Shown here one piece after another: positions 15,515-55,573 of a stretch of 64,000 nt of DNA (within the stretch, counting starts at the first letter, position 1; each line of letters begins with the position of its first letter). A model generated the notes under the pieces. The model made no database searches and was not told the DNA's origin. It was given only the letters and a program-made list of their open reading frames with translations. The stretch spans positions 26,228,001 to 26,292,000 of the forward strand of contig CM075988.1 of NCBI GenBank assembly GCA_038087875.1, given 5' to 3'. The translations under genes and the position numbers were made by a program. Source of the stretch: Malacoraja senta. Lineage: Eukaryota.

Positions 15515-15739
15515 ATGAAGCTTCTTGTTCTGACAATTCTACTTTTATGCGTGCATGACATCGTCGTCGGAATCAGTCAGAAGATTACCAAGAAATTGTC
15601 TATTACTCAAAATACGGGTCAATTTCAAAGCTCGGGGACTTTTGAGATGAAAGCGCCAGATCTAAATGATGAAGAGTTTCACTCCAGCCATATGCCTGAT
15701 CATTTGAAATGTGATTCCTGCAGAGCTATTTCTTACCAG
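15515..15739 (+). CDS. MZB1: MZB1-like coding exon 1 (signal peptide and CxxC)
   Basis: ATG at 15515; 75 codons ending CDSCRAISYQ|gtaggt. Confidence 0.93.
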
Positions 15740-32800: not shown

Positions 32801-35800
32801 TTTGGATAGCAGTAACAGGATTGGTCCAAGTCAGCATAAATTTACGAAGGGGAAATAATGCTTGACAAGTCTTCTGGAATTTTTTGAGGGCGTAACAAAT
32901 AAAATGGACAAGGGAGAGCCAGTGGATGTAGTGTACCTGGACTTTCAGAAAGCCTTTGATAAGGTTCGACACAGGAGATTGGTGGGTGAAATTACAGCAC
33001 ATGGTATTGGGGGTAGGGTACTGACATGGATAGAAAATTGGTTGGCAGGCAGGAAACAAAGAGTAGGGATTAACGGGTCCCTTTCAGAATGGCAGGCAGT
33101 GGGGTGCCGCAAGGCTCGGTGCTGGGACCCAGCTATTTACAATAAACATTAATGATTTAGATGAAGGAATTAAAAATAACATTAGTAAATTTGCAGATGA
33201 CACAAAGTTGGGTGGCAGTGTGAACTGTGAGGAGGTGGCAATGAGGATGCAGGGTGACTTGGACAGGTTGGGTAAGTGGGCAGATGCATGGCAGTTGCAG
33301 TTTAATGTGGATAAATGTGAGGTTATCCACTTTTGTGGCAAAAACAGGAAGGCAGATTATTATCTGAATGGTGTCAGGTTAGGAAAAGGCGAAGTACAAT
33401 GAGACTTGGGTGTCCTTGTACATCAGTCACTGAAAGTAAGCATGCAGGTACAGCAGGCAGTGAAGAAAGCGAATGGCATGTTCACCTTCATAACAAGAGG
33501 AGTTGAGTATAGGAGCAAAGAGGTGCTTCTGCAGTTGTACAGGGCCCTGGTGAGACTACACCTGGAGTATTGTGTGCAGTTTTGGTCTCCAAATTTGCGG
33601 AAGGACATTCTTGGTATTGAGGGAGTGCAGCATAGGTTCACAAGGTTAATTCCCGGGATGGCGGGACTGTCATATGATGAGAGAATGGAGTGACTCGGCT
33701 TGTATTCACTGGAATTTAGAAGGATGAGAGGGAATCTTATGGAACCATATACAATTATTAAGGGATTGGACATGCTAAAGGCAGAAAACATGTTCCCAAT
33801 GTTGGTGGAGTCCAGAACCAGGGGCCACAGTTTAAGAATAAGGGGTAGGCCAAATAGAACTGAGATGAGGAAAAACCTTTTCACACAGAGAGTTGTGAAT
33901 TTGTGGAATTCTCTGCCTCAGAAGGCAGTGGAGGCCGATTCAGTTGATACATTCAAAAGAGAGTTGGATAGAGGTTTTAAAGATAGCGGAATCATGGGGT
34001 ATGGGGGGAAGGCAGGAACGGGGTACTGATTGTGGATGATCAGCCAGGATCTCATTGAATGGCGGTGCTAGCTCGAAGGGCCAAATGGCCTACTCTTGCA
34101 CCTATTGTCTATATCTATGTAGATCTGTAATATTAGATTCATAGAACCATACAGCATGGAAATGGGCCCCTCAACCTAACATCTATGCGGACCAAGATGC
34201 CTCATCTAAGCTAGTCCCATTTGCCGCATTTGGTTCACATCCCTCTAAACCTCTCCTATCCATGTACCTGCATAAGTGTTTTTTAAATGCTGTTATAGTA
34301 CCTTGATTTCCCAACCCTGGGCAAAAGAGTCTGCGCATTCACTCGATAAGCGAATTCCCCACATTATTTTATTATGATATAGTTTAACAGGGAACAGGTG
34401 GAAAAGGTGTTTCCACTTCAGAGAAACTCTAAGACTAGGAATCAATAATGACATAATTACTTGCTCATGAATGGGTGACTCTACCTGCAGAGTGACTAGA
34501 GAGCTAGACATATGACTGTTGGGTCCCGGAAGTGAATGTAATGCTGGTACATTTGTGAGTAAGCCATGTAGATGAGATAGAGAAGATTGGGTTTCCTGGT
34601 GACGGAGCACAAACAATGGCATGTATTGTACGGTAAAAGGTATGTTTCTGAGTTCTCAATTTTATATATTCTATATAAATAACGAGTATTGCAAACATCG
34701 TGTCCCCTGGCTGCCGTAAAAGACCACACACAATCATTTGTGCCAAGGTAAAACCGCCATCACTATTAACACGATTAGAGCTGTGAGCCTCATATGGATA
34801 TATTCCAGTCCTGTTTCTCCTGCTACCCCACCCCATCTCCCTCCAGCTAAGTCGCACGCACCAGGGGTTGTTGCAAAGGCCTTCTACAGACTTGTCGAAC
34901 AAACTATTGTTGAATTGCAGATTTTGTTTTTGCCTTGGGAATTGCAACGTGAACGAGGTGGAACCAAACGTTATGTTTTCTGGTCTACATAGAGTAATAG
35001 GTTGTCTTTCTTTGGTATCATTGGGCCCACATTATCTCCACGTACTGCATATACGGTTGAATTTTCCTAGTGTAAATCATGGCAGGAATTACATAAGAGC
35101 CTTGTGTCATACAAGACCAAATGTAATTATTTGCACAACGCATTGATATATTTGTGCACAATTCCACACACTGATTGCTGCATGTTTTTTTCTGTTGCTC
35201 TCTGCTCATTGTATTCCCCTCTTGGGTCTTTAACTTTCTATCCCGCCTAAGAGAAATGATTTGAAAAAATGTGCGGAAGTACAGAGCAATTCTAATTGTG
35301 TGAAACACCATTGACAATCAACCTGTGGAGTGAACTTGCATTGATTATTGGAATTATTGTTTTAACTTTTTTTACAGCAGCTGAACTCATCCTGCAGCCC
35401 CCTTTATATCCTCATTTTAATTCTGTGAATACTGAAAACATCTTTCACTGGAGTCCAGCAGAGAATGGTCCACAACACATCCGATATGACGTGCAGTACC
35501 ACAGGTAAGAGAATCTCGTTGTCTCATAGCCAACATGGTGATCGATGAGGATATGTGAAGGTTCTAATGCAGCAACTGCATTAAGCTCAGTGAATCTGTT
35601 ACTGGCTTTACCTTGCACTAAACATTATTCCCTTATCATGTATCTATACACTGTAAGTGGCTCAATTGTAATCATGTATTGTATTTCCGCTGACTGGTTA
35701 GCACGCAACAAAAGCTTTTTACTGTATCTCGGCACACGTGACAATAAACTGAACTGAACTGAATTGAACTGGCATATGATTGGCGTGAACTGGTGGATAC

Positions 35801-38800
35801 GTGGACAATGTGAGCTCTGTAATGCGGGCAGGGGCTGGGGTGCCTGTAATACAACAAGCAGCACTTATTCTAATTGTTTCAACTGTGACTATTTGTTTTT
35901 GGAATCAGGGAGCATGCAGACAGGGTATCAATCAGTGCAAGCTGTATTGTGGACCAAGCATCCAAAGTTAGCAGCACCCAGTAGACCCCAGTCAGTGGCA
36001 GGCAGCTCTGTCCAGAGCACGCCTCACATTCTTCCCGGGGCACCGTATGCAACACAGTTTATAGGCCCTATCTCACACTCTGCCTTTTCATCTCAGGCCT
36101 TTATCCAACCAAATCTGCCAGTCATAAACACCCCTCATCCGTATCCACCTATCACTTCCCACAAAAAAAAAAGACAAAATGTGCTGGAGTAACTCAGCGG
36201 GTCAGGCAGCATCTGTGGAGAACATGGATAGGTGACGTTTCACAGAGTGCTGGAGTAACTCAGCGGGTCAGGCAGCATCTGTGGAGCGAAGGAAATGGGC
36301 AACCTTTCGGGCCGAAACCCTGAAGGAAATAGGCAACGTTTCAGGCCAAAACCCGGAAGGGTTTCGGGCCGAAACGTTGCCTATTTCCTTCGCTCCATAG
36401 ATGCTGCCGGAACATGGATAGGTGATGTTTCACAGAGTGCTGGAGTAACTCAGCAGGTCAGGCAGCATCTGTGGGGAACATGGATAGGTGACATTTCACA
36501 GAGTGCTGGCGTAACTCAGCGGGTCAGGCAGCATATCTGGAGAACATGGATAGGTGATGTTTTGGGTCAGGACTCTTCCTCAGATGCCAGGTTTTGTCCC
36601 ACCTCTATTGCAGCTTTCTTCCACCCGCTACAATCAGTCTGAAGAAGGGTCCCGAACCAAAATGTCACCTGACCCTGTTCTCCAGAGATATTGCATGACC
36701 TGCTGAGTTACTCCAACACTTTTATCTCTTTTTAGATAGCACATGAGGCTGTGTCTCCTTCTTTCCCCTCATAACTTCTAATTGAAAACGTCACATTACA
36801 CATTTTGCAGCATTAATTTTATGCTTTCAGAGTTAATTTGCCAGGTTAATCAATGTTGGCCTGGAGACCATAGTACAACCCCTTCATTATTTACCACAGT
36901 TGAGTTATGGGTCATCCTGCTTAATCTGGACCAGGTGGAAAGCTAGGTGTAATAGGAATTGTACGTTTCCAGATGAACAATTCACATCACATTTGGGCAG
37001 AGATTCAGTGGAGGTCTGAGCCAGTGAAAGAACTGAAATAGCTTTATGTAGGGACTAACATGATGACTCAGAACATGCCTGTATCAAAGAAATTCAAGTT
37101 TGATTTACTCAATATTTCAGTATTTTACGGTTAACTTCCTGATTTATCAATATTTTGTTAATATTGACTTTCACTGACGCTGTTTCGTGTATTTGTGTTG
37201 CAAAGGCGCTATATAAATCCAATCCATTATTATTATTATTAATGTTGGGAATGCCTGATTGTGGAAATGTTAAAACACGCACACAGTGATCATGAATCTT
37301 GCGTGTGATTACGCACTCATCTCAGCAACGTGGTTTAAACTGAGAAGTAAACGGTGACGTGAAGAACTGTGTCAACACAGCACTCTAACTAGAACACTAT
37401 ATGCCAGCCTCAGAAACTACAGCAGGAAAGTCCGAAAATCACCAATAAAGCCAGCATTCTGTCACTAATCCCCAGTAACCCTCGAGAAGGTGTTGAGCCC
37501 ACTTGTACTGTGAGATGTTTCGGAATTATAAGGGCTAAAGCAGCCTTTAAATGCACTTTGATTATGCTCTTCCGAACATAGACCCGAATATAGACACAAA
37601 AAACTGAAGTAACTTACCGGGTTAGGCAGAATCTCTGTTGAAAAGGAATAGGTGACGTTTCGGGTCGAGAATCTTCTTAAGACTTCTTGTTCCTGGTTTG
37701 GCCCCGAGTCATCCATTACATGTAAACACATCCACCATTATTGTGAAAAAACCTATTCTTACCAGGTCTGTTTGCGAGTTAAGTGTAAAAACCACAATTG
37801 ACATTGTCTATCTGTAAAACTGTAATTCTCAGTATTCTGACCAAGTCCATTTGCAAGTCGTTGCAATGACTTGGGGTTTCCCATTCCACCACTAAGCCTT
37901 TACTGCGGAGAGCCAAACCTTCAGTGCGCAAGGATCAGGGTAATTGGACAATAATACTCTGCGGCCTGCTGTGAAAATGGTGTTGACTTAGTCAGATTAC
38001 AGGATTAATGGTTCTGCCAAAGTGTCTGAAGAAGGGTCTCGACCTGAAATATCACCCATTCCTTCTCTCCAGAGATGCTGCCTGTCCTGCTGAGTTACTC
38101 CAGCTTTTTGTGTCTATCTGCCAAAGTGATGTTGTGTCGCCATATTAATACAATGTTTTGCATGCCCAGAGTGGAAATGTTTAAGGTAATTTCAAAGTAT
38201 TAGACTTTTCTCAACAGAGCACCTTTAGAAAACACACAACTGGTATCATGATTGATACACACAACTTTGGACGCCACATTAATGTCATATAAAAAATACC
38301 CGCATGAAACTAATGCCTTTCAAATGCCCTTTCAGCATGGCCAAATCACATTGAAATATAGTTACTGTTTAATGTGGAGAACACAGCAGTGTACTGCAAG
38401 CTCACATAGACAGCAATGCGGAAAAGAGTAGATTGATTGAGAGATATAGCATGGAAACAGGCCCTTCAGCCCTCCGAGTCCATCCCGATCATCGATCACC
38501 CATTCACGGCAGTTCTGTTTTCCCACTTTTGCATCCACTCCCTACACACTCAGGGCAATTTACAGAACTGATTAAACTACAAACCCGCACGTCTTTGGGA
38601 TGTGGGAGGAACCCATGCTGTCACGTGGAGATCGTGCAACCAACACATAAAGTTCACCCGAACACCACACAGACAACACCCAAAGTCAGAATCGAACCTG
38701 GGTCTGGGGCACTGTGAGGCAGCAGCTCTACCCGCTGCATCACCATCTTTCTACATTTCCACTGCGTTTACTGGTGGGTTGTATGAAGGTTGGTTTGGAC

Positions 38801-41800
38801 ACAAGGAGTCCTCCCCTGTTTTTATAAGTATCAGGGAGGGTGGTTGTAGGCAAGAGATCGTGTGAAAGAACATCCTGAAATATGAATGCGCAGAGTTAGC
38901 ACAGGAAATGTCCGCAATGAGGATGCTTCTTGAGAGAGTTAGCTTGCCTGATAATGTGTTGATGAGTCTGGTTATTGATTCCCAGGTATGGACATGATGA
39001 AGAACCTATCCCTGTGTCACACTGTACAGGGATACCCCACTGCTACTGTGACCTGACTGAGCAGACATGGGATGTCAACATTACCTACTTTGCCAGTGTC
39101 AGAAGTGTGATTGGCAACACAAGCTCGACATGGGAACGGACGATGTTCAAACCCTTCGATTCCAGTAAGTGACCTCTCAACCCACAGTGACTGTTACATC
39201 AATCATCTCTAGTGCCCACTACTCTTATGGAACAGTTTTTAATCAAAGATGACAGCTTGAAATATTTCTGCAAATCTGGTGATTGATGATAACTTTTAAG
39301 TTGCTTTGTTATGAGTTATACCTTTTTTTTTAAAATTCACTGCTGAGGTTGATATCCATGGCACAAGTTGAGAACACAGCTTTTGTCTCACTTTCAAGAT
39401 CGGTCTGGGATTATAATCTCTCGATCTACTCTATCCTAACCAAAGGTTAACCAAAAACCGAAAGGCTGCCTGATGTTTTTGCTTTGTAAGCATTGATACT
39501 AACAGAAGCTACGACTCTTGCCTCCAGCTAGCGTGACACAGTTAATTGTGGGAGGTGGACTGTGTGTGCAACAAGACCTACATATTGTGGAGGAAGGAAC
39601 TGCAGATGCTGGTTTAAACTGAAAATAGACATAAAAGTTTGGAGTAACTCAGCAAGTCAGACAGCATCTCTGGAGAGAAGGAATGGGTGACGTTTCCGGT
39701 CGAAACCCTTCTTCAGACTGATGTCAGGGGAGTGGGTGGTACGGAGATAAAAGACTAGTCAGAGAACTGGGAAGAGGGAGGGGATGGAAAGAGAGGGAAA
39801 GCAAGGTCTACTTGAAGTCAGACAGCATCTCTGGAGAAAAGGCATAGGTGAAGTTTTGGGTCAAGACCTTCAGACTGAGAGTCAGGGGAGAGGGAACTGA
39901 GCAGAAAGGGAAGGGAGAGAGACTGAGTCGCTCATACTCACTGACATGCTCCGTCTTATAAACATGGCAAGTATATTTACACTCACTGACACGTCCAGAC
40001 CAGAATACGCATTGATATTTACATAGATATCATCATTGACATCCATAGTCATTGACGTGCAGGCTCACTGATGTAAACACTGCCACATTCACCTATGGAC
40101 ATCAGGCACTGACAGGTTTGCTCATCAATGCACACCTATGGAAACATTCACCATGAATATCCATACTCATTCATTGGCACATTAATACTTACAGGTTAAT
40201 TCATTTTCATTTTGTATGTGGACCAAAATCTAATTTTGGATTTCATTTCCTTTCAGCCTTGTTGGGTTTGCCATCCTTTGTTACCGAAGTGGAGCATGAC
40301 GTGATTACAGTCCGACTCTTCCCGCCCACCCTGTACACAGCAAAGAGAAACAGGTCGATGGGGGACGTGTACCCACAGGAATTGAAGTACATCATTTATG
40401 TCCATGCGAATGACACTGACAGGGTAAGACCTTGTGGATCTCTGCCAATCTCTGCGACGGTTAATAATGACAATGGTAATTCTCATAAATTTGATGATTG
40501 CTGATGACAAATTTACACATTGCTGCCCCATCCCTGCCCTCGTAGTCAAACAGCCACCTACATCTCCCCACTCACTCCTGACAGGGCTGTAGCAAAATCC
40601 TCCTGTTGCTTGCCCTGATGATTGTTTCTCAAGAGCGAGTCATCCCAGGAGTGTAAGGCACAGTTGGGCAGTCAGTTACCTGCACGACCCTGCAGCTGAG
40701 CATTGCTAGGCCCACACTGGTTTTGGTCTACTGGGCTTCTTTAATACTAATAAATTGAATGCATACAGAGCTTCAACATAGCTAATGTGTTTCCGGCTCA
40801 TGTTCCAACAGACTGAGAAAATTCACAGTTCGGGAGCACCGGTCAAAACTACCATGCGACCAGGGAATATCTATTGCATCAGCGTCAGAGTACATTTGCA
40901 CGGAGACTCGAGGAAAAGCAACATTACAGAAGAGACATGTATCAAAATCCCAACTCCTAATCCAGGTAATGTATCGCATTAATCGTAATCATAATCATAA
41001 TTAATTTATTAGCCAAGCATGGTTTGCAACATACAAAGAATTTGACTAATATAAATGTTAGTGGCGTCTCAGGAGCCTGTTGTTAGTTTAGTTTGACAAG
41101 ATTAGTCTGGCATAACAGTTAGAACAGAGCCAAGTGAATTTCGTCCAGACAGATTGAGAAAGGTTTTGCCTCCCATTCTGGTCTATCGTGCTGAGTTGAA
41201 AAGTCAGTAAATGAATCAATTCCTGTCAGAAACTGCTTGAACATTTCCAATTTTGAAGTTTTCTTTTCTTTGGCCTACTAATGTTCCTAGAAAACCTGTT
41301 AGGAAACAATGGACTTAAGATCTTATCTCAGTGGAAAGACCAAGAAAAGAATGTAAAAAGTGCAAAATGAAAAACTACTTGGCCCGTCCAAATAGATTAC
41401 AGTATAAATGCTGGGAGCCAAAGGGGATGTGAATTTGTGAAGTATTTAACTGTGACGCAGTTAGTAACACTTCCTGTTTGAAGTCAGCCCCTTTGTCACA
41501 GTGCCTACTTTGCCATTACACTTACTTACAATTTAACAGGAAGCCAAGCTGAATAGGAATCTGATGGATAAAGACAACAGTGGCATGAAAGTCACTAGAT
41601 AACACATATCTCGTCTTGCTTAATTATATGATAAAACACTTCTCATTATAGAACAGGGTGATGTATTTGGCAGCGCTTTGATTCATAACCATTTCTGGGG
41701 CAACATATATTTTCACATTGACTTCATAAACAAAACAATAAATGCTAAGTCCATGTCCATGCAAAACCCCCTTGTAATAAAGGTCTTGGAGCAAGAAGCA

Positions 41801-44475
41801 TAGACTGGGTTGACGTGGCCTGAAATATGTGGAAGTATCGGGCTGGTTTAGGGATTATGAACAGATTATAACAGGGTAGTTTGGAACAGGGATGGGTGGG
41901 ATGTCTGAGGGTGATAGATTGTTATCCACAAAGAACAAAAGTACCCAGGCAAATGGAGATAAGATTTGGATCAACGTTGATCTCATTGAATTGCAGATGA
42001 ATCTCAAGGGCCTGAATTAAGATTTTATTATGTTGTCATTCCTACTGATAATTAGTGGCCTTTTATTTTCCAGATGTGGAGACTTTGATCAAGACTGTCG
42101 TTGGAGTCATTAGTGCTACCATCACACTGTTTGTTCTCTGCTTCTGCCTGGCCATGTTCTGCCGGTATTATTTGAAGGAACGAAGAATGACTCCAGCTGT
42201 CCTGGTAAGTTCTCCTCTCACTCACTCACAGTTTAGCAAACCATTATATCCAAATTAATTACTGCCAAGAACTCTGATCTAATCTCTCACCTCCAGAGTG
42301 AGCCCAGTGGCATAACTCTACCCTGACTCCACGCCAACCCATTCCTATTGTTGGCTATCCTCCATACCCCAAACCTGCCCGCCCTCCTGCTCCTCTGACT
42401 GACTATTTAGTGCCCCCTGTATTTCCATCAGGGTTACTAAACTAGATCAAGAAAACTAGCAGAATTTAGCATAGTTTAGTTTAGAGATACAGCGTGGAAA
42501 CAGGCCCTTCGGCCCACCGAGTCTGTACCGACCAGCGATCCCCGCACACTAACACTATCCTGCAAACACTGGGGACAAATGCGTACAGGGTAATGTTAAT
42601 GTCACTGTTTTTTTGTATGTATTAAAAATAAAGAGCCGCTTACAGCTACATAAGCAGTTTCCACATCCCTTTCAGAATGACCCCGTGTGCGTTTACCAGA
42701 TAGTAACGTCACGGTGTTAATCCTCACGCCTGGTTTGCTAGCTCAGTATGGGAACATTGATGATTAATAATCTGGATGAGTAATTGACAATTTGCAAATC
42801 TGAGTTTATTATTCACCCGGGTGTTAATCATACACAGCATTAGGGCAACAGGGGCAAGACCAGCAATGTTCATTTCTACTTCCCTTTGAGACATGTACAT
42901 CTGGGGGAAAAAAGCTATGCTTAGAAACTACTATGAAGCAGTAGGATCGTACAAACGTAACTGGGTCACGTGAGTCTGTCAGAGAAGGAAACGCGTCGTT
43001 TTAATCTACGTAGGGTTTATGAGTAACTGCAGCTTGGATTGGACTTCCTGGTGGTGTAGTAAAGGAAGCTGGTACAGACAGTGGCTCAGCTGGTAGAGCT
43101 GCTACCCTCCAGTGCCCAACTTGCCCACGCCAACCAACATGCCCCATCTACACTAGACATGTCCCATCTATTGCCCCATCTACACTAATGCCCCATCTAC
43201 ACTAATGCCCCATCTACACTATTGCCCCATCTACACTAATGCCCCATCTACACTAATGCCCCATCTACACTATTGCCCCATCTACACTAATGCCCCATCT
43301 ACACTATTGCCCCATCTACACTAGACATGCCCATCTACACTAATGCCCCATCTACACTAGACATGCCCATCTACACTAATGCCCCATCTACATTAATGCC
43401 ACATTTACACTAATGCCCCATCTACACTAATGCCCCATCTACATTAATGCCGCATTTACACTAATGCCCCATCTACACCAATGCCCCATCTACACTAATG
43501 CCCCATCCACACTAGACATGCCGCATTTACACTAATGCCCCATCTACACCAATGCCCCATCTACACTAATGCCCCATCTACACTAGACATGTCTCATCTA
43601 CACTAATGCCCCATCCACACTAGACATGCCCCATCTACTCCGGTACACAACACTCTTTACCTTGATGCAGGAATGTTCATAATGTTCAGATGGAATCACG
43701 TTGGTGAATGAGGTTTAGGCTGCATTCAGACCTGATGGTGGATTTGCATGGTCTATACCTGGCACCTCAGGATAGGCTCGAAGCCGGGCTGAAAGGTTTT
43801 GGCTTCCCTCATTGTGGTTCAGCAGATTTCCCATCTTGTGTTCTCCGTTGCGTTGCTTTGCATTTGCATTCACAATTAAACTGTTATTTCCTTTCACAGG
43901 AAACCTTTGGAAAGAACAGGAAGTTTTTGAGCAAAATGGACTACCTGAGTTTAACAGAGGATGTGGTGGTACAGAAGGTGATTGCTGACGATGCTCATCA
44001 CAGTGTCACCAAGATTCTGGACCAGGATGACCCATGGCCGGAGCAGAAGATGAGGGAGGCATCCTCCGTGGACAGTGGGATCGATATTGGCAGCCACTCG
44101 CCTGGGCGGATAGTTTTGATTGGTGAGGTTATGAACCTCTACAGGCAGCAAACGCCAGACTCCAGTGGTGTCCAGAGCACGAACTCCAGCAGTGTCCAGA
44201 GCACTGACTCTGAGTGTGGGCAGACCAGTTCTCAGCCCATCAGTGTCTGCTCGGTACACATCCCGGCTGCAAGCCCGGACCTAGGCGACTGCACTGGGGG
44301 CTATCAGAGGCAGATGCCCAGGGTTAACGATGACTCAGTGGCAGCAATGAGCAGTGTCATGCCAGAGCCTGCCCCAGACTGCACCATTTCAATATCAGGC
44401 ATCACTGTGGCACAAGACTTTACAAACAAATTTCTTACTTTAGGTGACATCATGTTAAAGGATAATGAACTTTAA
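29757..44475 (+). CDS. IL10RA: Interleukin-10 receptor alpha-like class II cytokine receptor, about 460 aa; join(29757-29805,35378-35504,38986-39164,40257-40423,40812-40965,42074-42204,43900-44475)
   Basis: Seven exons with class II receptor intron phases 1,2,1,0,1,0. FNIII motifs FNSVNTENIFHW, YDVQY, CDLT and YCISV...C; TM; box1 PAVL; DSGIDIGS (human DSGIDL); YRQQ and GYQRQ (human GYLRQ/GYLKQ). A convergent SMIM35-like neighbour matches the human locus. Confidence 0.85.
30905..31550 (-). mobile_element. CR1 3' end (minus) with a nested plus-strand CR1 3' end (about 30990-31165)
   Basis: Minus-strand peptide EGVHCRFTRFIPGMAGLTYDEGMGRLGLYSLEFRRMRGDLIET; 3' UTRs in both orientations. Confidence 0.8.
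32292..34120 (+). mobile_element. 5'-truncated CR1 LINE, ORF2 with a few stops and a frameshift
   Basis: Consecutive ORFs 32289-34029 are collinear with the 16856-19046 element; CR1 3' UTR and tail. Confidence 0.93.
35378..35504 (+). CDS. IL10RA: IL10RA-like exon 2 (FNIII D1a)
   Basis: tttacag|CAG|CTG; AELILQPPLYPHFNSVNTENIFHWSPAENGPQHIRYDVQYH; |gtaaga. Confidence 0.9.
36170..36725. mobile_element. Cluster of Penelope-type units: tandem 66-bp copies (minus), an internal fold-back junction and a plus-strand copy
   Basis: Repeated gtgctggagtaactcagcgggtcaggcagcatctgtggagaacatggataggtgacgtttcacaga; junction 36283-36407 nearly identical to that at 27743-27866. Confidence 0.8.
38440..38745 (-). 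mobile_element. HE1-type V-SINE
   Basis: Reverse-strand tRNA-like head, V domain and gggcctgtttcc tail. Confidence 0.75.
38986..39164 (+). CDS. IL10RA: IL10RA-like exon 3 (FNIII D1b)
   Basis: ccag|GTATGGA; YGHDEEPIPVSHCTGIPHCYCDLTEQTWDVNITYFASVRSVIGNTSSTWERTMFKPFDS; |gtaagt. Confidence 0.92.
39590..39920 (-). mobile_element. Tandem Penelope-type terminal-repeat fragments
   Basis: Two copies of the gcatctctggaga...cttcagactga unit; the reverse strand includes an ORF-end-like ACTTCAAGTAG followed by a pyrimidine tract. Confidence 0.7.
40257..40423 (+). CDS. IL10RA: IL10RA-like exon 4 (FNIII D2a)
   Basis: tttcag|CCTTG; LLGLPSFVTEVEHDVITVRLFPP...MGDVYPQELKYIIYVHANDTDR; |gtaaga. Confidence 0.9.
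40812..40965 (+). CDS. IL10RA: IL10RA-like exon 5 (FNIII D2b)
   Basis: aacag|ACTGAG; TEKIHSSGAPVKTTMRPGNIYCISVRVHLHGDSRKSNITEETCIKIPTPNP; |gtaatg. Confidence 0.9.
42074..42204 (+). CDS. IL10RA: IL10RA-like exon 6 (TM and box1)
   Basis: ttccag|ATGTG; VETLIKTVVGVISATITLFVLCFCLAMFCRYYLKERRMTPAVL; |gtaagt. Confidence 0.92.
43139..43640. repeat. 17-bp minisatellite (ATGCCCCATCTACACTA)n
   Basis: About 500 bp of directly visible tandem units, with variants, in IL10RA-like intron 6. Confidence 0.95.
43900..44475 (+). CDS. IL10RA: IL10RA-like exon 7 (cytoplasmic domain)
   Basis: tttcacag|GAAACC; 191 aa containing DSGIDIGS, YRQQ and GYQRQ; TAA at 44473-44475. Confidence 0.9.
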   Translation, partial: ETFGKNRKFLSKMDYLSLTEDVVVQKVIADDAHHSVTKILDQDDPWPEQKMREASSVDSGIDIGSHSPGRIVLIGEVMNLYRQQTPDSSGVQSTNSSSVQSTDSECGQTSSQPISVCSVHIPAASPDLGDCTGGYQRQMPRVNDDSVAAMSSVMPEPAPDCTISISGITVAQDFTNKFLTLGDIMLKDNEL

Positions 44476-44719
44476 GCAAAAGATCTTCATATTTAACATT
44501 CTGAAAGTGATTACCGTGCGTTTTATAATTAACTATTTATTAAAAAAAACTTCATTTCTTCCACCCATTGTAATTTGATTTATTTCTAGAAGCTCCTTGA
44601 TAAACCATGATTTCAACACATCACAAAGCTGGAGGCTGCTCAAGCTATCCACAAGGGCACAAATTCAAATCTTCATTCAATTCTAGACACGAGCATCACA
44701 ATCAGAGCATTGCCACCAC

Positions 44720-45630: not shown

Positions 45631-45982
45631 CCAAAGGCGGGCACAGATAAAGCTCTGCTGTCCAGCTGGGCCAGTCTGGAGGAGACGCCTAGTCTCAAGT
45701 AGTCTTGGCCTCCAATCAGCTGGCCATTACCGAGGCAAGGCTGGCTCGCGTCCTCGCGGGCAGGCATTGATGGCAACGTCTTTGCCCCGTCACTGACCTT
45801 ATCCAGAGAGTGGGACAACCCAGATTCACCAAAACCAAAGCTGTGAACTGACTAATTATGAATGAGCAGGAACTCTGGAACTTCTTGAACTTGTACAAGG
45901 TGCAGAATGAATGGCAGAAGCTTACGGCTCCACTCTGGGTTATGTACGCCTCACATGGACACTCCGTACACACAGCCGAGCA

Positions 45983-46357
45983 GCTATTGAGGGAGCGCAG
46001 CGTAGGTTCAACAGGTTAATTCCCGGGATGGCGGGACTGACATATGGTGAAAGAATGGGTCGACTGGGTTTGTATTCACTGGAATGTCCAAGTCACTCTG
46101 CACCCTCAATGCTATGAGGATGCAGGGTGACTTGGGCAGGTTGGGTGAGTGGTCAGATGCAGTATAATGTGGATAAATGTGAGGTTATCCACTTTGGTGG
46201 CAAGAACAGGAAGGCAGATTATTATCTGAATGGTGTCAAGTTAGGAAAAGGGGAAGTACAACAAGATCTGGGGGTCCTTGTTCATCAGTGACTGAAAGTA
46301 AGCATGCAGGTACAGCAGGCAGTGAAGAAAGCGAATGGCATGTTGGCCTTCATAACA
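45983..46357 (+). mobile_element. Rearranged CR1 RT fragment
   Basis: AIEGAQRRFNRLIPGM segment precedes the normally upstream MQGDL...KKANGMLAFIT segment. Confidence 0.8.
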
Positions 46358-47306
46358 AATTTAACAAACAAACTGGTCATTCCTTCTTCTCCCTGCTGCT
46401 GTGAGGCGAATGGTACAGAAATCTGCACCACCAGACGGAGCTACAACTCCTTCTCACTCTGCACTTTTGTTGTAGATTGTCCGGTTGTGTTACTCCAGTA
46501 CTTTGTGCCTTGTTTTGTAAACCGGCATCTGCGGTTCTTTGGGGATAAACCAATATTGCTAATGTTATATGCAGTAGTACCAATATCTCCCTTTTTCCCT
46601 GAACTCATGTTGCCTCCTGGGAGAGTGGACCTTTCCTTGTGCGGGGGGTCACCCTCGGGAGTTGGGGTCATGAGGACCAGTGGGTCTATTGTCCAACCAA
46701 GGAGTTGTTCTGAAGTCCTGACCTCCCTTTCTTTTGCAGCAGGTGACTCAAATCCCACCCACCTTTTTCAAAGGTCATTGTAAAAGCCACTAATAAAGAG
46801 CCGTGATCTTGTATATTGGTCTCTTTTTATTTTGTGTCTCTGGAATTCTTGACTCTCAATACATCTCACCAAAGCTAAGAAATCTGGTTATGGTGTAACT
46901 GGGGCGCAGGCACTGAATCCTGCCGAGGTGAAACAAGAATTTGGTTTTCTTTTGGGAGGAGGAGGGGTGGGGGGGGAGATGGAGCATGAATTACAGTAAA
47001 CCCTTGCTATGGTGAACCACACTTGTGGGGGGCAGGGGGGGGGGTGGGTTGGGGGCAGTTGAGAGGGAGGAGGGAGGTAGTGCCTGTTATTGCCAATGTT
47101 CTGCTACAACCAAATAAGGGGCTTAATTTGTACTATACACTTGGAAAAAACAGCAAATAAACATACAATAAATAAACAGTAAGGGGCACCAAATATACCA
47201 TGCCTTGTAGTGGCACAGTGGCACTGCAGTCGAGGAATGTCTATCTGTGATTGAAATTCTTGATTCTCTGCATTTCTTTGCAAAACGAGCTGTGATTTGG
47301 TGAGAA

Positions 47307-47463
47307 TTACGGCTCATCCTCTTCAGTCCCATTGCGCCCCCAGTCCCCTCCCTTCATATTGCGATACTGGAACTGGTGGTCTGAGCTGCGATTTCCCACA
47401 CTGTTCATCATCCCACTGACAGTAAACGGGGGGTGAAACTCCAGCTGGATGGCGTTCAGCTCC
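47307..47463 (-). CDS. SMIM35: SMIM35-like last coding exon
   Basis: tttttacag|GGAGCTG; ELNAIQLEFHPPFTVSGMMNSVGNRSSDHQFQYRNMKGGDWGRNGTEEDEP*. Confidence 0.8.
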
Positions 47464-50400
47464 CTGTAAAAATAACCCAGCAGTTAGTACATTGCCACTT
47501 CCACAAGTCAAGGTGAGGGAGGAAATATTTAATAGGAACCCAAGGGGCAACTTGTTTTACACAAAGGCTGGTGGGTGTATTCTGGAGGCACCCATGTGTG
47601 TTACAATGGGTTAATGAAAAGAGCCGCGTTTAGTGCAAGATTCTTCAGACCTGCAATGTGAAGCGGAACTGCAATGCAACTGGCATGCAGCACATTCACT
47701 CTGCTCAGATATGAGCACAGGTTTACTGAACAACAATTAAACATTGTGGTTTTACATGGAACAGCACGTGTTGCCCTCCATAGAACGGCCAGTCTTTGAC
47801 TTCATTCTGTTTTATGTCCACGCCCACACTGATGGTGAACTATCCACAAATACACCAATAGTGAACTATCCACATCTACACCAATAGTGAACTGTCCATG
47901 CCCACACTGATAGTGAACTATCCACAAATACACCAATAGTGAACTGTCCACATCTACACCAATAGTGAACTATCCACATCTACACCAATAGTGAACTGTC
48001 CACGCGCACACCAATAGTGAACTATCCACAAATACACCAATAGTGAACTATACACGCCCACACTGATAGTGAACTATCCACATCTACACCAATAGTGAAC
48101 TGTCCACGCCCACACCAATAGTGAACTATCCACATCTACACCAATAGTGAACTGTCCATGCCCACACCAATAGTGAACTGTCCACGCCCACACCAATAGT
48201 GAACTGTCCACGCCCACACCAATAGTGAACTGTCCACGCCCACACTGATAGTGAACTATCCACAAATACACCAATAGTGAACTGTACCTCAGAATATTCC
48301 GACGGAAGTTCATCTTGGGTCCTGTGGACGTACAGAAGGAGGAACAAAGATTACAACGGGCTTTGCATTGAAGCAACAAGCTGGTCTCATATTAGACACA
48401 CCCACAGACACATCCACACAGACACCCATACACACATGCACACACACACGCAGCACAGTATCCCACAGAAACATAAGCCTATTTCCTTCGCTCCATAGAT
48501 GCTGCTGCTGCACCCGCTGAGTTTCTCCAGCATTTTCGTGTACCTTCGATTTTTCAGCATCTGCAGTTCCTTCTTTAACACAACATAATCCCCTTCACAG
48601 AAGAGATTTCTGACTGTATTTTTCACTTCCCATTCTCTATCCTAAACCTACTCATTCATATCTAGGCTATACTGTTTAATGACCCAAGTGTAGGGTCCCA
48701 GCGCCAGGTCCTGCTTCACCCCATGCCTGTTCCCCAGGAGGTCCTACACCAAGAGTGACCACCGCCGCGTGTGACCCCTCCCACGGGGGTCAGTGGGGGG
48801 GTCAGTGGGGCAGTGGGGGGTCAGTGGGGCAGAGGGGGGTCGGGCGGGTCAGTGGTTACAGAAACATTGGTGGTCTACGTTTAAAGGAGTGTCCACGTCA
48901 GTGGTAGAGGATGAAGAGGGCAGCCAGGGAAACAATGGTGAGCAGCAGCAGGCAGATGGCAATGATGATCCCTCGCGTATTCACACCGCCATCTGAAACA
49001 AGAGAGAGGAACATCATCAGAATGAGCACATCTCAGCACTCTGCCTTTTCATTAACTATTGGTTTTGTTTGATGTTTCTGATTGGACCTCTTAAATGACA
49101 ACAAAGACACAAGGAACAGTCCCTGCCTCATGTGCACGCATCTACCTCATCTCAGCCCATCAACCTAGCTTTCCCTTACTGTCTCCCTCACATATTTATC
49201 ATTCTCTCTCTTAAATGAATATAATCCACTTTACAGCAAGTCCCATATTCTACTGAACTAGGAAGACAATTCTCCAGACATGTTAGTGTGGGGCTGGTTC
49301 AGGATACCTCCACTACATTCACAGCTAGCATTCACCACAGTAACGATTTAAATGAGAATGGAACTGGTATAATTAGCAAGTGAGCAGAAGTCACCACAAT
49401 TGGTGCATGGTGGACAGTGAAGAAGGTTGTCTAAGATGACCTCATGATATAGATTACCCGTGAAATTGGTCAGGAAATGGATGAAATTTAACTTGGACAA
49501 ATGCAAAGTGATGCATTTTGGAAAATTAAACTACGAGAGGATGTGCAGAGGGAACGAGGGACTGTTGTTGATCAGAAAGACCTTGAGGTACAAGTATAGA
49601 GTTCCCTGATAATGGAACAGGGGGTGAGGATGGCCGAATAAGGTGCTGGTTTACAATTGACATGCTTGCCGTCATTGGTCAAGGCACTGACTATATGAGT
49701 TGGGTGGTCATGTTACTGTTGTAGGAAGGGTTAGTTAGGTTGCATTTGGAGTATTTTATGCAGTTCTGGTCACTCGCCATACAGTTAGATGGATCTGATT
49801 AAAGCAGAGGAAGGGTTTCGGGCCGAAACGTTGCCTATTTCCTTCGCTCCATAGATGCTGCTGCACCCGCTGAGTTTCTCCAGCACTTTTGTCTACCTGC
49901 AGGAGAGATTTGCAGGTATGTTGCATGGACTGGAGGGCTTGAGTTGTGAGGAGAGATTGGAGACACTAGATTTATTTTCCCTAGAGTGATCGAGGCTGAG
50001 AGGTGACATGAAAAATACAAATAGTTCTTCTATTAATATCTTCCATGTTACTAATATTTAGTAATAAAATCGTGCCTTTTGCTAGGTTCACTGGTTTTTT
50101 TCTCCCATTATTTCTTAAGTAGAGACTGACTCTAATCTGCAGGAACCATTCTAGGATGTCTGGAGCTTTGGAAGATTTCAACGTGCATCCATTATCCCCA
50201 TGGACGCCTCGTTCAAAGCCTTGAGATAAAGTTCATCAGGTCCTTGAAAGTCAATATTTTGTCATTTCCATTAATTTTACCAATGCCTCATTTTTACTTA
50301 CTTTACATAATATATACATTACATGTACACCCCCCCCCCCCCACCTCTACCCCCTCCCCAATCTTTGCACATACTCAATCCTTTCCACTAGTCACTTTAA

Positions 50401-53400
50401 TTTCATGTTTCATGTACCTTGTGTTTTATGACTGTCGGCAGATCAATTTCCCTCCTGCGATAAATAAAGTTATTTCGTATCATATCATATTGTATAGTGA
50501 TGTCACATCACACATTATTTTCTTTCAGCTCCTTATTCACTAGATCTGCATCCACCCATCATTCCCCAAGGCTCTCTGTATCACCTCCTAATTTTCGCTG
50601 AAATTCTCTGTCATTTCCTTATTTCCCAATATAATTTCTCCTCTCTCCGTCATTATAGGCTCCCCATTATAATGTACTAATCCTTTCCTTTATGCAAATT
50701 TACAGCATCATTTAAAATCTGCCTTTGTTTCTGACAATTACATTTACCCTTTATTTTTACAAGTCATCAATTTTTTAATTGCCCTTTGTTGAATTCTGAA
50801 AATGCCCCCCCAGTCAGGCTTATTGCTCATTTGGTAATATTATAAAACATATTCATTCATCTTATGCCAGCTTTAACTTCCCTTGTTAGCCATTCCTGAG
50901 CAATTTTTCACTTTCAAATTTTTGCGCCTTAAAATAAATGTATCCCTTTAAAATGTGCACTAATGGCTTCAAGTTTAGTCTGTCCTTGTTTCCTGTCACA
51001 TCGTTCAATATAGTTTCCTGAGACACCAGAGGACATTCATGAGGTAGATTCAAGACCTTGCTTAACATTTTAAAGTTACGTTACAACTTTATATAAATTC
51101 TAATATATTGCGATCTCTCTTCCCGGAACTATTAGAGTTTGTCTACACTAAATATTTACCGTCCAATCCACGCTATTAGAAATGTAGAATATCTGGTCAC
51201 GTTAGGGTTTCTGGAAGAATGTTTTGTACTGATTAGTTAGTGTGGGCGGCACGGTGGCGCGCAACAGAAGAGCTGCTGCCTTAAAGGCCTGTCCCACTTG
51301 GGCGTCATTTGCACGTCATTTACGCGACAGGCCGGTAGTGACTGACGTGCGACAGTTGCGCGAAAATCGTCTAGCAGTACGACAGTCGCGCACCAAGTGC
51401 TCTTGAGGGCCCTGCTTCTTTTGGGAGCCATTTACGATGTGGTTCGTACTTAGTCCGATCTCCGTGGCAAGGATTTTCCCAATGAAAATTTTTCAAAACT
51501 ACGCACGCTTTATACCCGGGTGGTCATGTGGTGCGGCGCTCAAATCACGCGCAATGGCGCGCCGACGGCGTACGGGCGGGGCATAGTTACGGACGTTGAC
51601 GTACGGTGACACATAATAAATTAGCATAGGCAATGTTCGTGCGTAACCATGCATCACCACGCGCTACACGTACGCCGTCAGTAGGTCAGCGTGCGCAAGG
51701 GATACGTCACGCAGGTGGCGCGCGAGGATTTTGAGCATTCCAAAATCCTGGGGTGCCGCATCTTGGGAGATGGCGGTGGCGCGGGCACAGACTGTTTACC
51801 CTCCTCCCATCTGGGAGGCGCTACAGGTCTCTCCGTTGCCGGACCAGCAGGTTCAGGAACAGCTTCTTCCCGGCGGCTGTTACCCTACTTAACTCAGCAC
51901 CTTGGTGATTGCCAGTCATCCCCCCCCCCCACCCCGACACTCCTTCCCCCAGTGACTGATCTCCCCCCCCCCCCCCCGAAAATTACACTACTACTACTGT
52001 ATATACATAAATATATTTGACTGTTCCATTATTCTGTATTGGCACTTCTGGGTGAGATGCTAACTGCATTTCCTTGTACACTGCACAATGACAATAAAGT
52101 TTGAATCTGAATCTGTCACGACACGCCAACCAATTTTTAGGATGTCGCGTAAATGAGGCACAAATGACGCCCAAGTGGGACAGACCCTTTACAGCGCCAG
52201 AGACCCAGGTTTGATCCTGATCAGGGGTGCTGTCTGTACAGAGTTTGTACATCCTCACTGTGACCGCGTGGGTTTTTCTCCAGGTGCTCCAGTTTGCTCC
52301 CACACTCCAAAGACATGCAGGCTTGTCGGTTAATTGGCTTCATAAGTTGTACAATTGGCCCTAGTGTGTGTAGGTTAGTGTACAGGGTGATGGCTGGCCA
52401 GCACGGTCTCGGTGGACAGAAGGGCCTGTTTCTGTGCTGTATCTCTAAAGTCTAAAGTTACAAGTTCTGTAAAGGTACTGTACAACTCTAAAGCATCTGA
52501 GATCATTAGGAACACGCTAAGATTGCACAAGGTAGCATATAAATGGCATTTCTGCTTTCTTTAAGTTTCAGGTATTGGTTAGATATTTAAGACTTGGTTT
52601 ATTTGGCAATGAATGGAATGTCGGCACATTTCTCCTTACTATTTCCCGTCTCTGTGTGGTTCGTGGGAGTAAGCAGCCTTTCGATAAGTCGGAGGACGTC
52701 ACCTGAAGGAACAACCGTTGTGAGTTTGCTGTACGGATGATCTACAGACAAGAAGAGATACACATTACCGTAGGTTTGGTGGCAGCCGGGCTCTGGTCAA
52801 CGCTGAGGTGTGGTCACCCTATACTTCTGATAAGGTTCAGGTCTCGATCCACTGGGGCTAGCCATGCTCGCATGGATAGTGGTCATGCCTTTGAACTAAA
52901 AGCTTGAGAGTCTGAGTCATCATAAGAAACTTGAGCACAAATCTAGTGTGCTTGTTGCCAGAACCGTCATCATTCTGATCAGAATTTAAAGCTGGATCCT
53001 ATCTGTCATTGACACGGACGGCTGTGGAGACCAAGTCAATGGATATTTCTAAAACAGATTGACAGATTCTTGATTAGTACGGGTGTCAGAGGTTATGGGG
53101 CAAAGGCACGAGAATGGGGCTGAGAGGGAAAGATAGATCAGCCATTATTGAATTGCGGAGTAGACTTAATGGGCCGAATGGCCTAATTCTGCTCCTATCA
53201 CCATATGTTCTCACAGATGGTGATTAACAAGCTGGCGGAACCATTAACGAGGAGCTCGACTCAGATCTGTGGCCACGTTTAGAACCAGGAAGAGCAGTGA
53301 AATATTGGTAACTGATGTTGCACTCAGTTGTATTGGCTAGCAAACTTTGCACTCTGTGAATCTGCCATCTACAAAATACCCACTGTGCTTCCTGCAATTC

Positions 53401-54138
53401 AACATCAGCTGCTGTGCTCTAAGATTCCTTAGAAGATAAACCATCAGCACCCTCTATGAAGAGAGATTGTGTTCAGGGTGGGCCCAGCAAATCCACTTTG
53501 CACACACAAAAGCTGCCAGCTAGACATGGCCCAGATACATGGATGGCCCCCCTCCATGTCTATAGCATTGGAGATGCGGTGTGATTTACCACACAGGGCC
53601 GCGTGCACACAGCTCTGGAATTAGTCTCAGGGAGACTTTCAGCCTCTTGGGTAATTGCTCACCTGTCCAATAGTAATAATTGCAGAAACATTGGCACCAA
53701 GTTAAAAAAAGTTCCTGTCCTTTTAATCGGAACAAAGGATAGAGATTGGAGAAACTCAGCGGGTGAGGCAGCATCTATGGGTCTGAAGAAGGGTCTCGAC
53801 CCGAAACGTCACCTATTCCTTCGCTCCATAGATGCTGCCTCACCCGCTGAGTTACTCCAGCATTTTTGTCTACCTTCGATTTTTTCCAGCATCTGCAGTT
53901 CTTTCTTAAACAAAGGATAGAGGTTGTTAAGTAATAAATATATTCAGAGGCAGAGAGCATCTCATGTTACAAGCGTACACAATCCCCACATTGTTTACAG
54001 TCCCATTACCCTCCAATGCTACGGAGATGGGGGTGAGGGGGGGGGGGGGGGGAGGGCAACAGGAATAAAACCGGTTTAAACATTGAAGCCACAAACCAGA
54101 GCTGTACGCAGGGTCCTCGGACCTTAATGCTTACCCAT
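47307..54138 (-). CDS. SMIM35: Small integral membrane protein 35 (SMIM35)-like; complement join(54138-54135,52741-52703,48992-48879,48321-48288,47463-47307), 115 codons with in-frame TGA at codon 46
   Basis: MDHPYSKLTTVVPSDGGVNTRGIIIAICLLLLTIVSLAALFILYH*RGHSFKRPKMNFRRNILRELNAIQLEFHPPFTVSGMMNS... is collinear with human SMIM35 as recalled (STLGLILGVGLLLL...YQRGY...GPNFVF...LEMGPPFTISG). It lies tail-to-tail with IL10RA as in human. The two 5' exons rest only on splice signals, phase and Kozak context. Confidence 0.75.
47815..48287. repeat. 26-bp minisatellite (CCACGCCCACACCAATAGTGAACTGT)n, about 18 units
   Basis: Directly visible tandem array with variant units. Confidence 0.95.
48288..48321 (-). 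CDS. SMIM35: SMIM35-like 34-nt exon
   Basis: Strong polypyrimidine tract and ccacag|GACCCAAG...CTGAG|gtacag; (R)PKMNFRRNIL(R); phases 1/2 fit both neighbours. Confidence 0.7.
48879..48992 (-). CDS. SMIM35: SMIM35-like TM exon (contains in-frame TGA at 48900-48898)
   Basis: tctcttgtttcag|ATGGCGG; DGGVNTRGIIIAICLLLLTIVSLAALFILYH*RGHSFK; weak donor gtagac. Confidence 0.75.
49340..50010 (+). mobile_element. Old CR1 RT/C-terminal fragment with a Penelope-type insert (about 49810-49898)
   Basis: MKFNLDKCKVMHFG and RLHLEY..QFWS remnants. Confidence 0.7.
51243..52460 (+). mobile_element. HE1-type V-SINE split by a DNA transposon
   Basis: Head gggcggcacggtggcgc...gctgcc (51244-51280) resumes as acagcgccagagacccagg at 52191; V domain; tail tgtatctctaaagtctaaag. 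Confidence 0.85.
51284..52188. mobile_element. Non-autonomous PIF/Harbinger-like DNA transposon (MITE) containing a Rex1/Babar 3' end (about 51785-52114)
   Basis: About 46-bp imperfect TIRs (AAGGCCTGTCCCACTTGGGCGTCATTTG... / ...CAAATGACGCCCAAGTGGGACAGACCCT); TTA duplicated at 51281-51283 and 52189-52191; no transposase ORF. Confidence 0.8.
52703..52741 (-). CDS. SMIM35: SMIM35-like candidate 39-nt exon
   Basis: tctcttcttgtctgtag|ATCATCC...TCAG|gtgacg; (D)HPYSKLTTVVPS; phase 1-1. Confidence 0.55.
53745..53908 (+). mobile_element. Penelope-type short element with 5' inverted arm and the best-preserved hammerhead-like core (53779-53814)
   Basis: 14-bp direct repeat AACAAAGGATAGAG (53731-53744, 53909-53922); GGGT-CTGAAGA-A-GGGTCTCGACCC-GAAA-CGTC-ACCT. 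Confidence 0.75.
54135..54138 (-). CDS. SMIM35: SMIM35-like candidate start exon (ATG G)
   Basis: ataATGG|gtaagc: good Kozak context, strong donor, phase 1. Confidence 0.5.
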
Positions 54139-55573
54139 TATTCCCCCTGAGAGACTGCAGCCAGTGCAGCATTTGCTGTCGAGATTGAGAGCTCCCAGCA
54201 AACTCGGCTATGATTGAAACTGGTTTGTCCTGATTCCTGACAAGTCAAGCACAGTGGTGCTCAAAATAAACTGGACCATCAGCTGAGTTAAGGCAAACAT
54301 CATAACTTCACCAATATCACCCTACCCCTATTTCATTCTCCACACCACACCTCACTTGTCCTAACGTCTCTGTTGCCCTTCCTCTCCAGTTACTCTTCCC
54401 TTCTCTCTACATCTCCTCCCCCTCCCCCTCCCCCACGCATTCTCCTTCTTTATCATTTCTCTCCACTCTCCTTCCCCCACCTCCCCTCTCCGCCTCATCC
54501 TCCATGAGCAAGCGCAGTGTGTGTGTGTGGGAAACCATACCATTCTGGTCTTCAGACACCTGGTGTAGCAGCAGTGGGCTGGTCAAGGGGTTGCGTTGTT
54601 ACATTGTTCCTGGGCCTTGCTACTGTGACCATTCATAGATCTAGGCACTGGGCCATCAGGGAAGCATCAGATTACTGCTGGACCTCCACAGTTTATGCAT
54701 GTCATCCTGGACAGAGTCAGCAAAATACTCGAGCCCTTCTGTGATCTATGGTCACTGCATCCTCAATGCTAAAGTTCACCCTCTAGTTTGCATCTTCCAC
54801 ATGCTGCGAGTGAAATGAAATTCTATTTTTAATTTGTTAAATGGGAACCAGAGGGGACTGCTCTAAACAAATTAAAAATATAGATATAGAGTAACGCAAC
54901 TTAAACATTGGAATACACTTGCTGAAAATGTAGCTGAATAAATCAGTGGGATCTTTGTTGCCAGAGTATCTCCCAGAGATTGGTTCAGGCAGGTGTTACG
55001 GCTCTGGGGGATTGAAGCAGGAGAGGATTTGTGCGTCTCGTTGGTTGTAACCAGCCTCTTGCCGCACCTTTGTTTGAGGTTATGATCTTTGCCTGTTCTT
55101 TTCCTCAGATGAGCAGTCAGCGCGGACAAGAATCGCGAGTGTTCACCTGTCGTATGAACCAGACGTTCTTGCTGTTGCAGCGTTACAGGTGCACTGGAAG
55201 CAACGGTAAATTCCACTGTTGTCCAACTTGTGGAGAATATATGTTTTGTACAATCTGTTCATCTGACACCGTTTCTAATCTCTGGCCTTTGTTTACACCA
55301 TCTGCCCATCAACCCCCCCCCCCTCCACATATTACCCACCATGCTCTGTTGTGCCTCTTTCCTCTCCGAGCTTTCCCTTTCCCCCCCCCGACCTCCTACA
55401 AACAGTCTGAAGAATATCCCAACCCAAACATCACCTATCCATGTTCCCGCGAGATACTGCCTGACCTGCTGAGTTACTCCAGCACTTTGTTTCCTTGTTC
55501 GTAAACCAAGCATCTGCAGATCTTTATGTCTACACAGGCAAGCACCAACCCAGTCTCCATATAACGTTCCCAA

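What the first reader, a model, noticed from the sequence alone, without database searches (positions are those of the whole stretch)
48879..48992. SMIM35-like microprotein gene with an in-frame UGA right after the TM helix
Seen: the exon reads ...CTC TAC CAC TGA CGT GGA CAC (LYH*RGH; TGA at 48900-48898, minus strand). The next two exons keep correct phases, stay open, and retain LEFHPPFTVSG, close to human SMIM35 LEMGPPFTISG as recalled. Inference: four explanations fit: (a) a recent CGA>TGA CpG nonsense allele or young pseudogene; (b) programmed readthrough, since UGA-C is the leakiest stop context, switching a 45-aa tail-anchored peptide to a 115-aa form with a cytoplasmic tail; (c) selenocysteine, though I saw no convincing SECIS; (d) an assembly error. 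The weak donor (gtagac) slightly favours decay. Standard annotation would likely miss this gene.
Basis: partly seen in the sequence, partly recalled or inferred. Interest (0 to 1): 0.72.

Follow-up and report, generated by a model that had tools for sequence, protein, structure and literature searches.

The report
Recent nonsense mutation in skate SMIM35
A skate's copy of the small membrane-protein gene SMIM35 carries a real stop codon where related skates, rays and sharks have arginine, so it is most likely an ordinary recent knock-out mutation and not a special way of reading the genetic code.

Summary
The TGA at 48900-48898 (minus strand) is real. The gene is the SMIM35 orthologue: 129 of 136 codons match the Amblyraja radiata protein, and it lies tail to tail with an IL10RA-like gene. 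Two runs of the window's organism read TGA, so it is not an assembly slip. Two related organisms read CGA, and 10 of 10 named shark and ray species have Arg in this column. I found no SECIS, no stem-loop after the stop and no UGA-CUAG context. Two corrections: the main form is 136 aa with the stop at codon 67, not 115 aa with the stop at codon 46, and the exon 3 donor position is used in a relative's spliced contig. The stretch looks homozygous; whether the allele is fixed in the species is open. The stop would remove the whole predicted cytoplasmic tail. Ordinary finding, low interest.

The parts
54135..54138 (-). Start codon and end of exon 1 (ATG G, donor GTAAGC); 5' end of the exon unknown
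   Evidence: Sequence and splice signal; the A. radiata N-terminus matches just upstream at 54172-54152, 6 of 7 residues. Exon 1 itself is inferred; no transcript covers it.
52640..52741 (-). Exon 2, long form (102 nt), with an N-x-T sequon; an internal donor after 52703 gives the short 39-nt form
   Evidence: tblastn of A. radiata X1 and X2; spliced contig in run X22 lies on 52640-52742
48879..48992 (-). Exon 3 (114 nt): transmembrane helix, codons 44-64, and the basic stretch after it
   Evidence: both boundaries match spliced record 17 of run X22
48898..48900 (-). Premature TGA, codon 67 of 136; CGA (Arg) in relatives
   Evidence: TGA in runs X1 and X2; CGA in runs X3 and X5 (classified); Arg in 10 of 10 named cartilaginous fish species
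48288..48321 (-). Exon 4 (34 nt), open; holds an in-frame ATG (codon 77) 27 nt after the stop
   Evidence: 11 of 11 residues match A. radiata
47307..47463 (-). Coding part of exon 5, with the conserved PPFT-V/I-SG motif, a Y-R-N-M motif and the normal TAA
46826..46831 (-). First AATAAA, 475 nt after the normal stop: likely polyadenylation signal
   Evidence: use not shown
54135..54172 (-). Upstream ATG 34 nt before the main ATG, out of frame; would open a 26-codon ORF overlapping the start
   Evidence: in A. radiata the annotated protein begins at the matching ATG 11 codons upstream, in frame
35332..44472 (+). Neighbouring IL10RA-like class II cytokine receptor gene, tail to tail; matched exons open (context, not part of the finding)
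   Evidence: Pfam Interfer-bind; homologues; exon matches without stops

Best explanation
The window holds a five-exon SMIM35 orthologue whose codon 67 reads TGA where relatives read CGA (arginine), most likely through one recent CpG transition, so the allele would make a 66-residue stub without its cytoplasmic tail and is likely a loss-of-function allele or a very young pseudogene. Shown: the gene structure, the TGA in two runs of this organism, and CGA or Arg in relatives. Inferred: methyl-CpG deamination as the cause; recency, because no second lesion and few amino-acid changes have built up; homozygosity in the sequenced animal (about 80%). Predicted: the mRNA would meet only partial nonsense-mediated decay, because the stop lies 53 nt before the last exon junction and 198 nt after the start, on the edge of both escape rules. 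The stub would lose the +5 charge after the helix, the PPFT-V/I-SG motif and the tyrosine motif, and would likely be inactive. Whether the allele is fixed in the species or segregating is open (about even odds).
For: Relatives: runs X3 (organism B, depth 7.5) and X5 (organism C, depth 2) both show A>G at 48900 on the plus strand, i.e. CGA (codon classification); 2 of 2 related organisms read at this site. Proteins: Arg in 10 of 10 named cartilaginous fish species; the 6 bony vertebrate rows have R, R, K, K, L, Q. Not an error: X1 (depth 25.1) and X2 (depth 2.82) cover the site with 0 other letters. Recency: 7 of 136 positions differ from A. radiata, the stop included. At codon 48 runs X3, X5 and X22 list no difference from the window, and at codon 121 Met stands in 9 of 10 species, so those two are likely A. 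radiata changes. All four introns have GT-AG ends and no frameshift. Homozygous look: 0 other letters in the long X1 pieces (3,532 bases) and X2 pieces (4,002 bases). CGA>TGA was the most frequent nonsense change in a human survey, 203 of 1,183 (PMC2561068, passages and Table 5). Decay rules: 50-nt and 200-nt rules as described in PMC12776119 (passages).
Against: Only two runs of this organism cover the site. X1 is near-identical and may be the window's source; X2 shows no letter difference either, so it may be the same animal or a low-diversity species, and is not an independent population sample. X2 and X5 are single contigs under depth 5. Logan contigs drop minor alleles, so a CGA allele in the same animal is not excluded. 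Organism D's codon could not be read: it lies 22 letters from the end of the piece and 2 of its 3 differences in exon 3 were not listed. The downstream frame is still open, as readthrough would also predict. No RNA or protein evidence from this organism.
Confidence: 0.9

Rival explanations
1. Programmed stop-codon readthrough: the leaky UGA-C would let a share of ribosomes make the 136-residue form, so the stop acts as a switch between a stub and a full protein.
For: The base after the UGA is C and the downstream frame is open and close to A. radiata.
Against: The stop is not conserved: CGA in organisms B and C, Arg in 10 of 10 named species. The C is simply the first base of the next ancestral codon. 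The context is UGA CGU, not the UGA CUAG consensus (10.1101/2021.04.18.440353, passages). No stable structure follows the stop in the spliced message: z = -0.17, -1.0 and +0.41 for 60, 100 and 150 nt. That paper puts basal readthrough commonly under 0.1%.
Confidence: 0.03
2. The stop is tolerated because a changed product keeps a job: the 66-residue stub, a 60-residue tail restarted at the ATG 27 nt after the stop, or a 98-residue form that skips exon 3 in frame.
For: Codon 77 is an in-frame ATG with A at -3; exon 3 is 114 nt, so skipping keeps the frame. Decay is predicted to be weak.
Against: Each product separates the tail from the membrane anchor. Met at codon 77 is found only in the window and A. 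radiata among the rows. No transcript or protein evidence.
Confidence: 0.04
3. Assembly or base-calling error.
For: A single base makes the difference; X1 may be the source data of the assembly.
Against: Contigs of two runs, built separately from the window, read TGA with 0 other letters. The neighbouring IL10RA-like exons matched carry no stops or frameshifts.
Confidence: 0.02
4. Selenocysteine: UGA would be read as Sec through a SECIS in the 3' UTR.
For: In-frame UGA in a vertebrate gene.
Against: Orthologues have Arg, never Cys, in 10 of 10 cartilaginous fish and no Cys in 6 bony vertebrate rows. Rfam scan of 44400-49100 gave 7 weak matches, none a SECIS and all under the family cut-off. 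My pattern scan found 0 hits in 507 and 2,907 bases (it had no positive control and models canonical SECIS only).
Confidence: 0.005

Closest known systems
SMIM35 (small integral membrane protein 35) of Amblyraja radiata, XP_032905554.1 (X1) and XP_032905555.1 (X2)
   Same: 129 of 136 positions identical from its Met12 onward; same two exon-2 donors; same exon order.
   Different: Arg at codon 67 instead of a stop; its annotated start lies 11 codons upstream in frame, where the window has 34 nt and so is out of frame.
CGA>TGA nonsense polymorphisms and young unitary pseudogenes
   Same: Single CpG transition at an Arg codon in an otherwise intact gene; the most frequent class in PMC2561068 (passages read).
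   Different: Nothing in kind. Here the allele frequency is unknown.
Programmed readthrough genes with the UGA CUAG context
   Same: UGA followed by C, open frame downstream.
   Different: No CUAG, no downstream structure, stop not conserved, and it lies mid-protein as a derived change.
DAP10 (YINM) and CD28 (YMNM) cytoplasmic motifs
   Same: The lost tail holds Y-R-N-M; YxxM occurs in 9 of 10 and YxN in 8 of 10 cartilaginous fish orthologues. YINM and YMNM are described as PI3K p85 sites (PMC5852076, passages).
   Different: Motif likeness only; no homology was found or tested. The 5 tetrapod rows have YxxF instead. A lead on what SMIM35 may do, not a result.

Membership tests
SMIM35 orthologues | Sequence similarity to proteins named SMIM35 over helix and tail | tested here: met
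   E 7.5e-25 for the last exon; the A. radiata protein finds tetrapod SMIM35 at E 1.9e-6 to 8.1e-4; shared PPFT-V/I-S motif in 16 of 16 full-length rows
SMIM35 orthologues | Position next to IL10RA | tested here: met
   IL10RA-like gene tail to tail in the window. In S. torazame the two have adjacent locus tags 4955 and 4956; in 4 more species they show the same longest-contig length. Human adjacency is recalled, not tested.
SMIM35 orthologues | Intact reading frame through the tail | tested here: not met
   Stop at codon 67; this makes it a broken allele of the orthologue, not another family
Nonsense allele / young unitary pseudogene | Stop is derived from a sense codon conserved in relatives | tested here: met
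Nonsense allele / young unitary pseudogene | Stop is in the organism's DNA, not only the assembly | tested here: met
   Runs X1 and X2
Nonsense allele / young unitary pseudogene | Fixed in the species (needed for 'pseudogene') | tested here: inconclusive
   X2 has no letter difference from the window over 4,002 bases and may be the same animal
Nonsense allele / young unitary pseudogene | No intact second copy elsewhere in the genome | not testable with these tools
   No genome is held; no second copy within the window
Programmed readthrough gene | Stop codon conserved across species | tested here: not met
Programmed readthrough gene | Stimulatory context (UGA CUAG) or downstream structure | tested here: not met
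   UGA CGU; z-scores -1.0 to +0.41
Programmed readthrough gene | Measured readthrough above background | not testable with these tools
   Needs a reporter assay or ribosome profiling
Selenoprotein | SECIS in the 3' UTR | tested here: not met
Selenoprotein | Sec/Cys pairing in homologues | tested here: not met
   Arg in 10 of 10 cartilaginous fish; no Cys in any of 16 rows

The most novel reading that the evidence does not exclude
The stop is fixed in this skate species yet the tail is still made at a low level by UGA-C readthrough and kept by selection: a readthrough switch caught at birth, turning a membrane adaptor with a PI3K/Grb2-type tyrosine motif into a mostly tail-less form.
Probability: 0.03. 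Interest if true: 0.55.

Novelty: new member of a known kind. Interest (0 to 1): 0.12.

Why it matters
Little, as it stands: premature CGA>TGA stops in small genes are routine. Two modest uses remain. If the allele is homozygous or fixed, this skate is a natural knock-out of a gene conserved from sharks to birds. I found no paper naming the gene in its title or abstract (searches SMIM35, TMPRSS4-AS1 and 'integral membrane protein 35' listed 12, 4 and 3 papers, none with the term there; listings only). The alignment also points to a conserved tyrosine motif in the tail, a testable lead on SMIM35 function.

Tried and rejected
Own-genome search: no genome is held, so a second copy elsewhere could not be sought. 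No RNA holder on record was listed; not used as evidence. X23 had no cover on exon 3; not used. The second lay took in repeats that flooded the joint and loose-end tables, so the exon 3-4 junction and organism D's codon could not be read. Pfam: no family for the SMIM35 exons and none at its cut-off for 17 aligned rows. ESM Atlas gave generic single-pass membrane proteins (TMEM154, SMIM33, opalin at 0.93, LIME1 at 0.89) with no agreed family and no structural match above TM 0.50. The one metagenome match, L001, is a chance 21-base hit in an unrelated prokaryote-like open frame. dN/dS after the stop was not computed: I had no full relative DNA for exons 4 and 5. Listed exon 3 differences, the stop aside, were 2 of 2 synonymous in B and 4 of 6 in C. 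The weak-donor argument was rejected; no difference was listed at the donor in B or C, but 7 of 15 and 5 of 16 of their other letters were not listed, so identity there is not shown. Several annotated sharks and rays returned an IL10RA-like hit but no SMIM35 hit; the word search also missed two true orthologues, so this is no evidence of loss. Earlier scan notes: none near this place or like this sequence; those concern other genes. No structure was predicted, as it would not bear on the stop.

Full report
Observation. The minus strand at 48992-48879 is an exon with an AG acceptor and a GTAGAC donor. It encodes a hydrophobic helix followed by L-Y-H, a TGA at 48900-48898, and R-G-H. The next two exons, 48321-48288 and 47463-47307, keep phase and stay open.

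Identity. The last exon finds SMIM35 of Amblyraja radiata at E 7.5e-25 and 94% identity. Further searches gave orthologues named by NCBI or UniRef in 10 cartilaginous fish species, plus sturgeon, axolotl, turtle, snake, ostrich and gecko proteins (the Scyliorhinus torazame and gecko records are named hypothetical). The neighbour on the plus strand is an IL10RA-like receptor. In S. torazame the two genes have adjacent locus tags, and in four more species they show the same longest-contig length. The window is therefore from a skate close to, but not the same as, the A. radiata record.

Gene model. Five coding exons: 54138-54135, 52741-52640, 48992-48879, 48321-48288 and 47463-47307, all introns GT-AG, 136 codons. 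That is the length in 7 of 7 shark species. Record 17 of run X22 (organism D; 462 letters, depth 7.96) lies on 52640-52742 and, directly adjoining in the record, on 48878-48992. The tool labels this run 'RNA? (probably DNA)', but a contig that skips the intron at exact exon ends is spliced sequence, a transcript or a processed copy. It confirms the long exon 2 and both ends of exon 3. Its other 240 letters fell outside the laid stretch; that they are exons 4 and 5 is my inference. So the GTAGAC donor position is in use in a relative and is no sign of decay.

The codon. Runs X1 (depth 25.1) and X2 (depth 2.82) of the window's organism cover 48900 with no other letters. Runs X3 (organism B, depth 7.5) and X5 (organism C, depth 2) both read G on the plus strand, which is CGA. 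All 10 named shark and ray species have Arg in this column; the six bony vertebrate rows have R, R, K, K, L and Q. The stop is thus derived and confined, so far as seen, to this organism. CGA>TGA at a CpG was the most frequent nonsense change among human SNPs, 203 of 1,183 (PMC2561068, passages and Table 5).

Age and zygosity. Seven of 136 positions differ from A. radiata, the stop included; at least two look like changes on the A. radiata side. There is no frameshift or second stop, so the lesion is likely young. The long X1 and X2 pieces show 0 other letters over 3,532 and 4,002 bases, with small gaps in one piece each. One skate species has a reported heterozygosity of 1.6% (PMC10115646, passages); at even 0.1% divergence, zero differences in 4,002 bases has probability about 0.02 if sites are independent. 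The stretch therefore looks homozygous, and X2 is either the same animal or the species has low diversity. X1 may be the assembly's own source, and contigs drop minor alleles. I put homozygosity at about 80% and cannot tell fixed from polymorphic.

Recoding tests. The context is UGA CGU, not the UGA CUAG consensus, and basal readthrough is commonly under 0.1% (10.1101/2021.04.18.440353, passages). The C after the stop is inherited from the next codon. The spliced sequence after the stop folds no better than shuffles (z -0.17, -1.0, +0.41). Rfam gave 7 weak matches in 44400-49100, none a SECIS; my own pattern scan gave none, without a positive control. Homologues have no Cys here. Neither readthrough nor selenocysteine has support.

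Likely consequence (predicted, not shown). In the intact relative the best 21-residue helix is codons 44-64, with net charge 0 in the 15 residues before it and +5 in the 15 after it; an N-x-T sequon precedes it in 9 of 10 cartilaginous fish. By the positive-inside rule (general knowledge) this is an N-out, C-in protein. The stop falls two residues after the helix and removes the basic stretch, the PPFT-V/I-SG motif and a Y-R-N-M motif. The stop is 53 nt before the last junction and 198 nt after the ATG, at the edge of the 50-nt and 200-nt escape rules described in PMC12776119 (passages; mammalian data), so decay may be partial. The 66-residue stub would resemble a tail-anchored peptide with no signalling part and is likely inactive. 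Restart at codon 77 or in-frame skipping of exon 3 would give tail fragments without an anchor.

What SMIM35 may do. YxxM occurs in the tail of 9 of 10 cartilaginous fish species and in sturgeon, YxN in 8 of 10; the five tetrapod rows have YxxF. YINM of DAP10 and YMNM of CD28 are described as PI3K p85 sites (PMC5852076, passages). A role as a small membrane adaptor is a lead from motif likeness only. My three searches for the gene's names listed 12, 4 and 3 papers, none with the term in title or abstract; I saw listings only. No supplements were read.

Verdict. A real, recent, ordinary nonsense change in a known gene; confidence 0.9. Readthrough 0.03, a tolerated alternative product 0.04, error 0.02, selenocysteine under 0.01. 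Interest 0.12.

Noticed in passing
window 54172-54135 (-): An upstream ATG lies 34 nt before the main start, out of frame; it would open a 26-codon ORF overlapping the start (62 codons with the short exon 2). In A. radiata the matching ATG is annotated in frame. If transcribed it could damp translation, a possible second small hit. Direction of change unknown.
   Followed up: partly
window 47307-47463 (-): Tail tyrosine motif: YxxM in 9 of 10 cartilaginous fish and sturgeon, YxxF in 5 of 5 tetrapod rows; resembles DAP10 and CD28 motifs.
   Followed up: partly
window 35332-44472 (+): IL10RA-like receptor, matched exons open. Orthologues are named inconsistently in databases (IL10RA, IL10RB, IL20RA, IFNAR2, tissue factor-like). 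Its last exon has a 24-nt duplication at 44158-44210, also seen in P0026 but not in P0028.
   Followed up: partly
window 15479-15793 (+): An exon with a signal-peptide-like start and a C-D-S-C motif that resembles MZB1/canopy proteins from recall; Pfam gave no match on this fragment.
   Followed up: no
window 16743-18980 (+): A 746-codon open frame that reads as a CR1-type LINE reverse transcriptase (recalled likeness); further broken copies at about 32200-34000.
   Followed up: no
window 47817-48283 and 43168-43638: Intronic minisatellites: 26-bp unit x 18 starting 4 bases into intron 4 of SMIM35, and 17-bp unit x 27 in the last IL10RA-like intron.
   Followed up: no
window 48860-54300: No letter differences in the long unique pieces of two runs over 3.5-4.0 kb: a homozygous block or a low-diversity species.
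   Followed up: partly
P0012 (Carcharodon carcharias isoform X2): An annotated 88-residue isoform ends just after exon 4 and lacks the conserved tail motifs, so short forms are annotated in another shark too.
   Followed up: no
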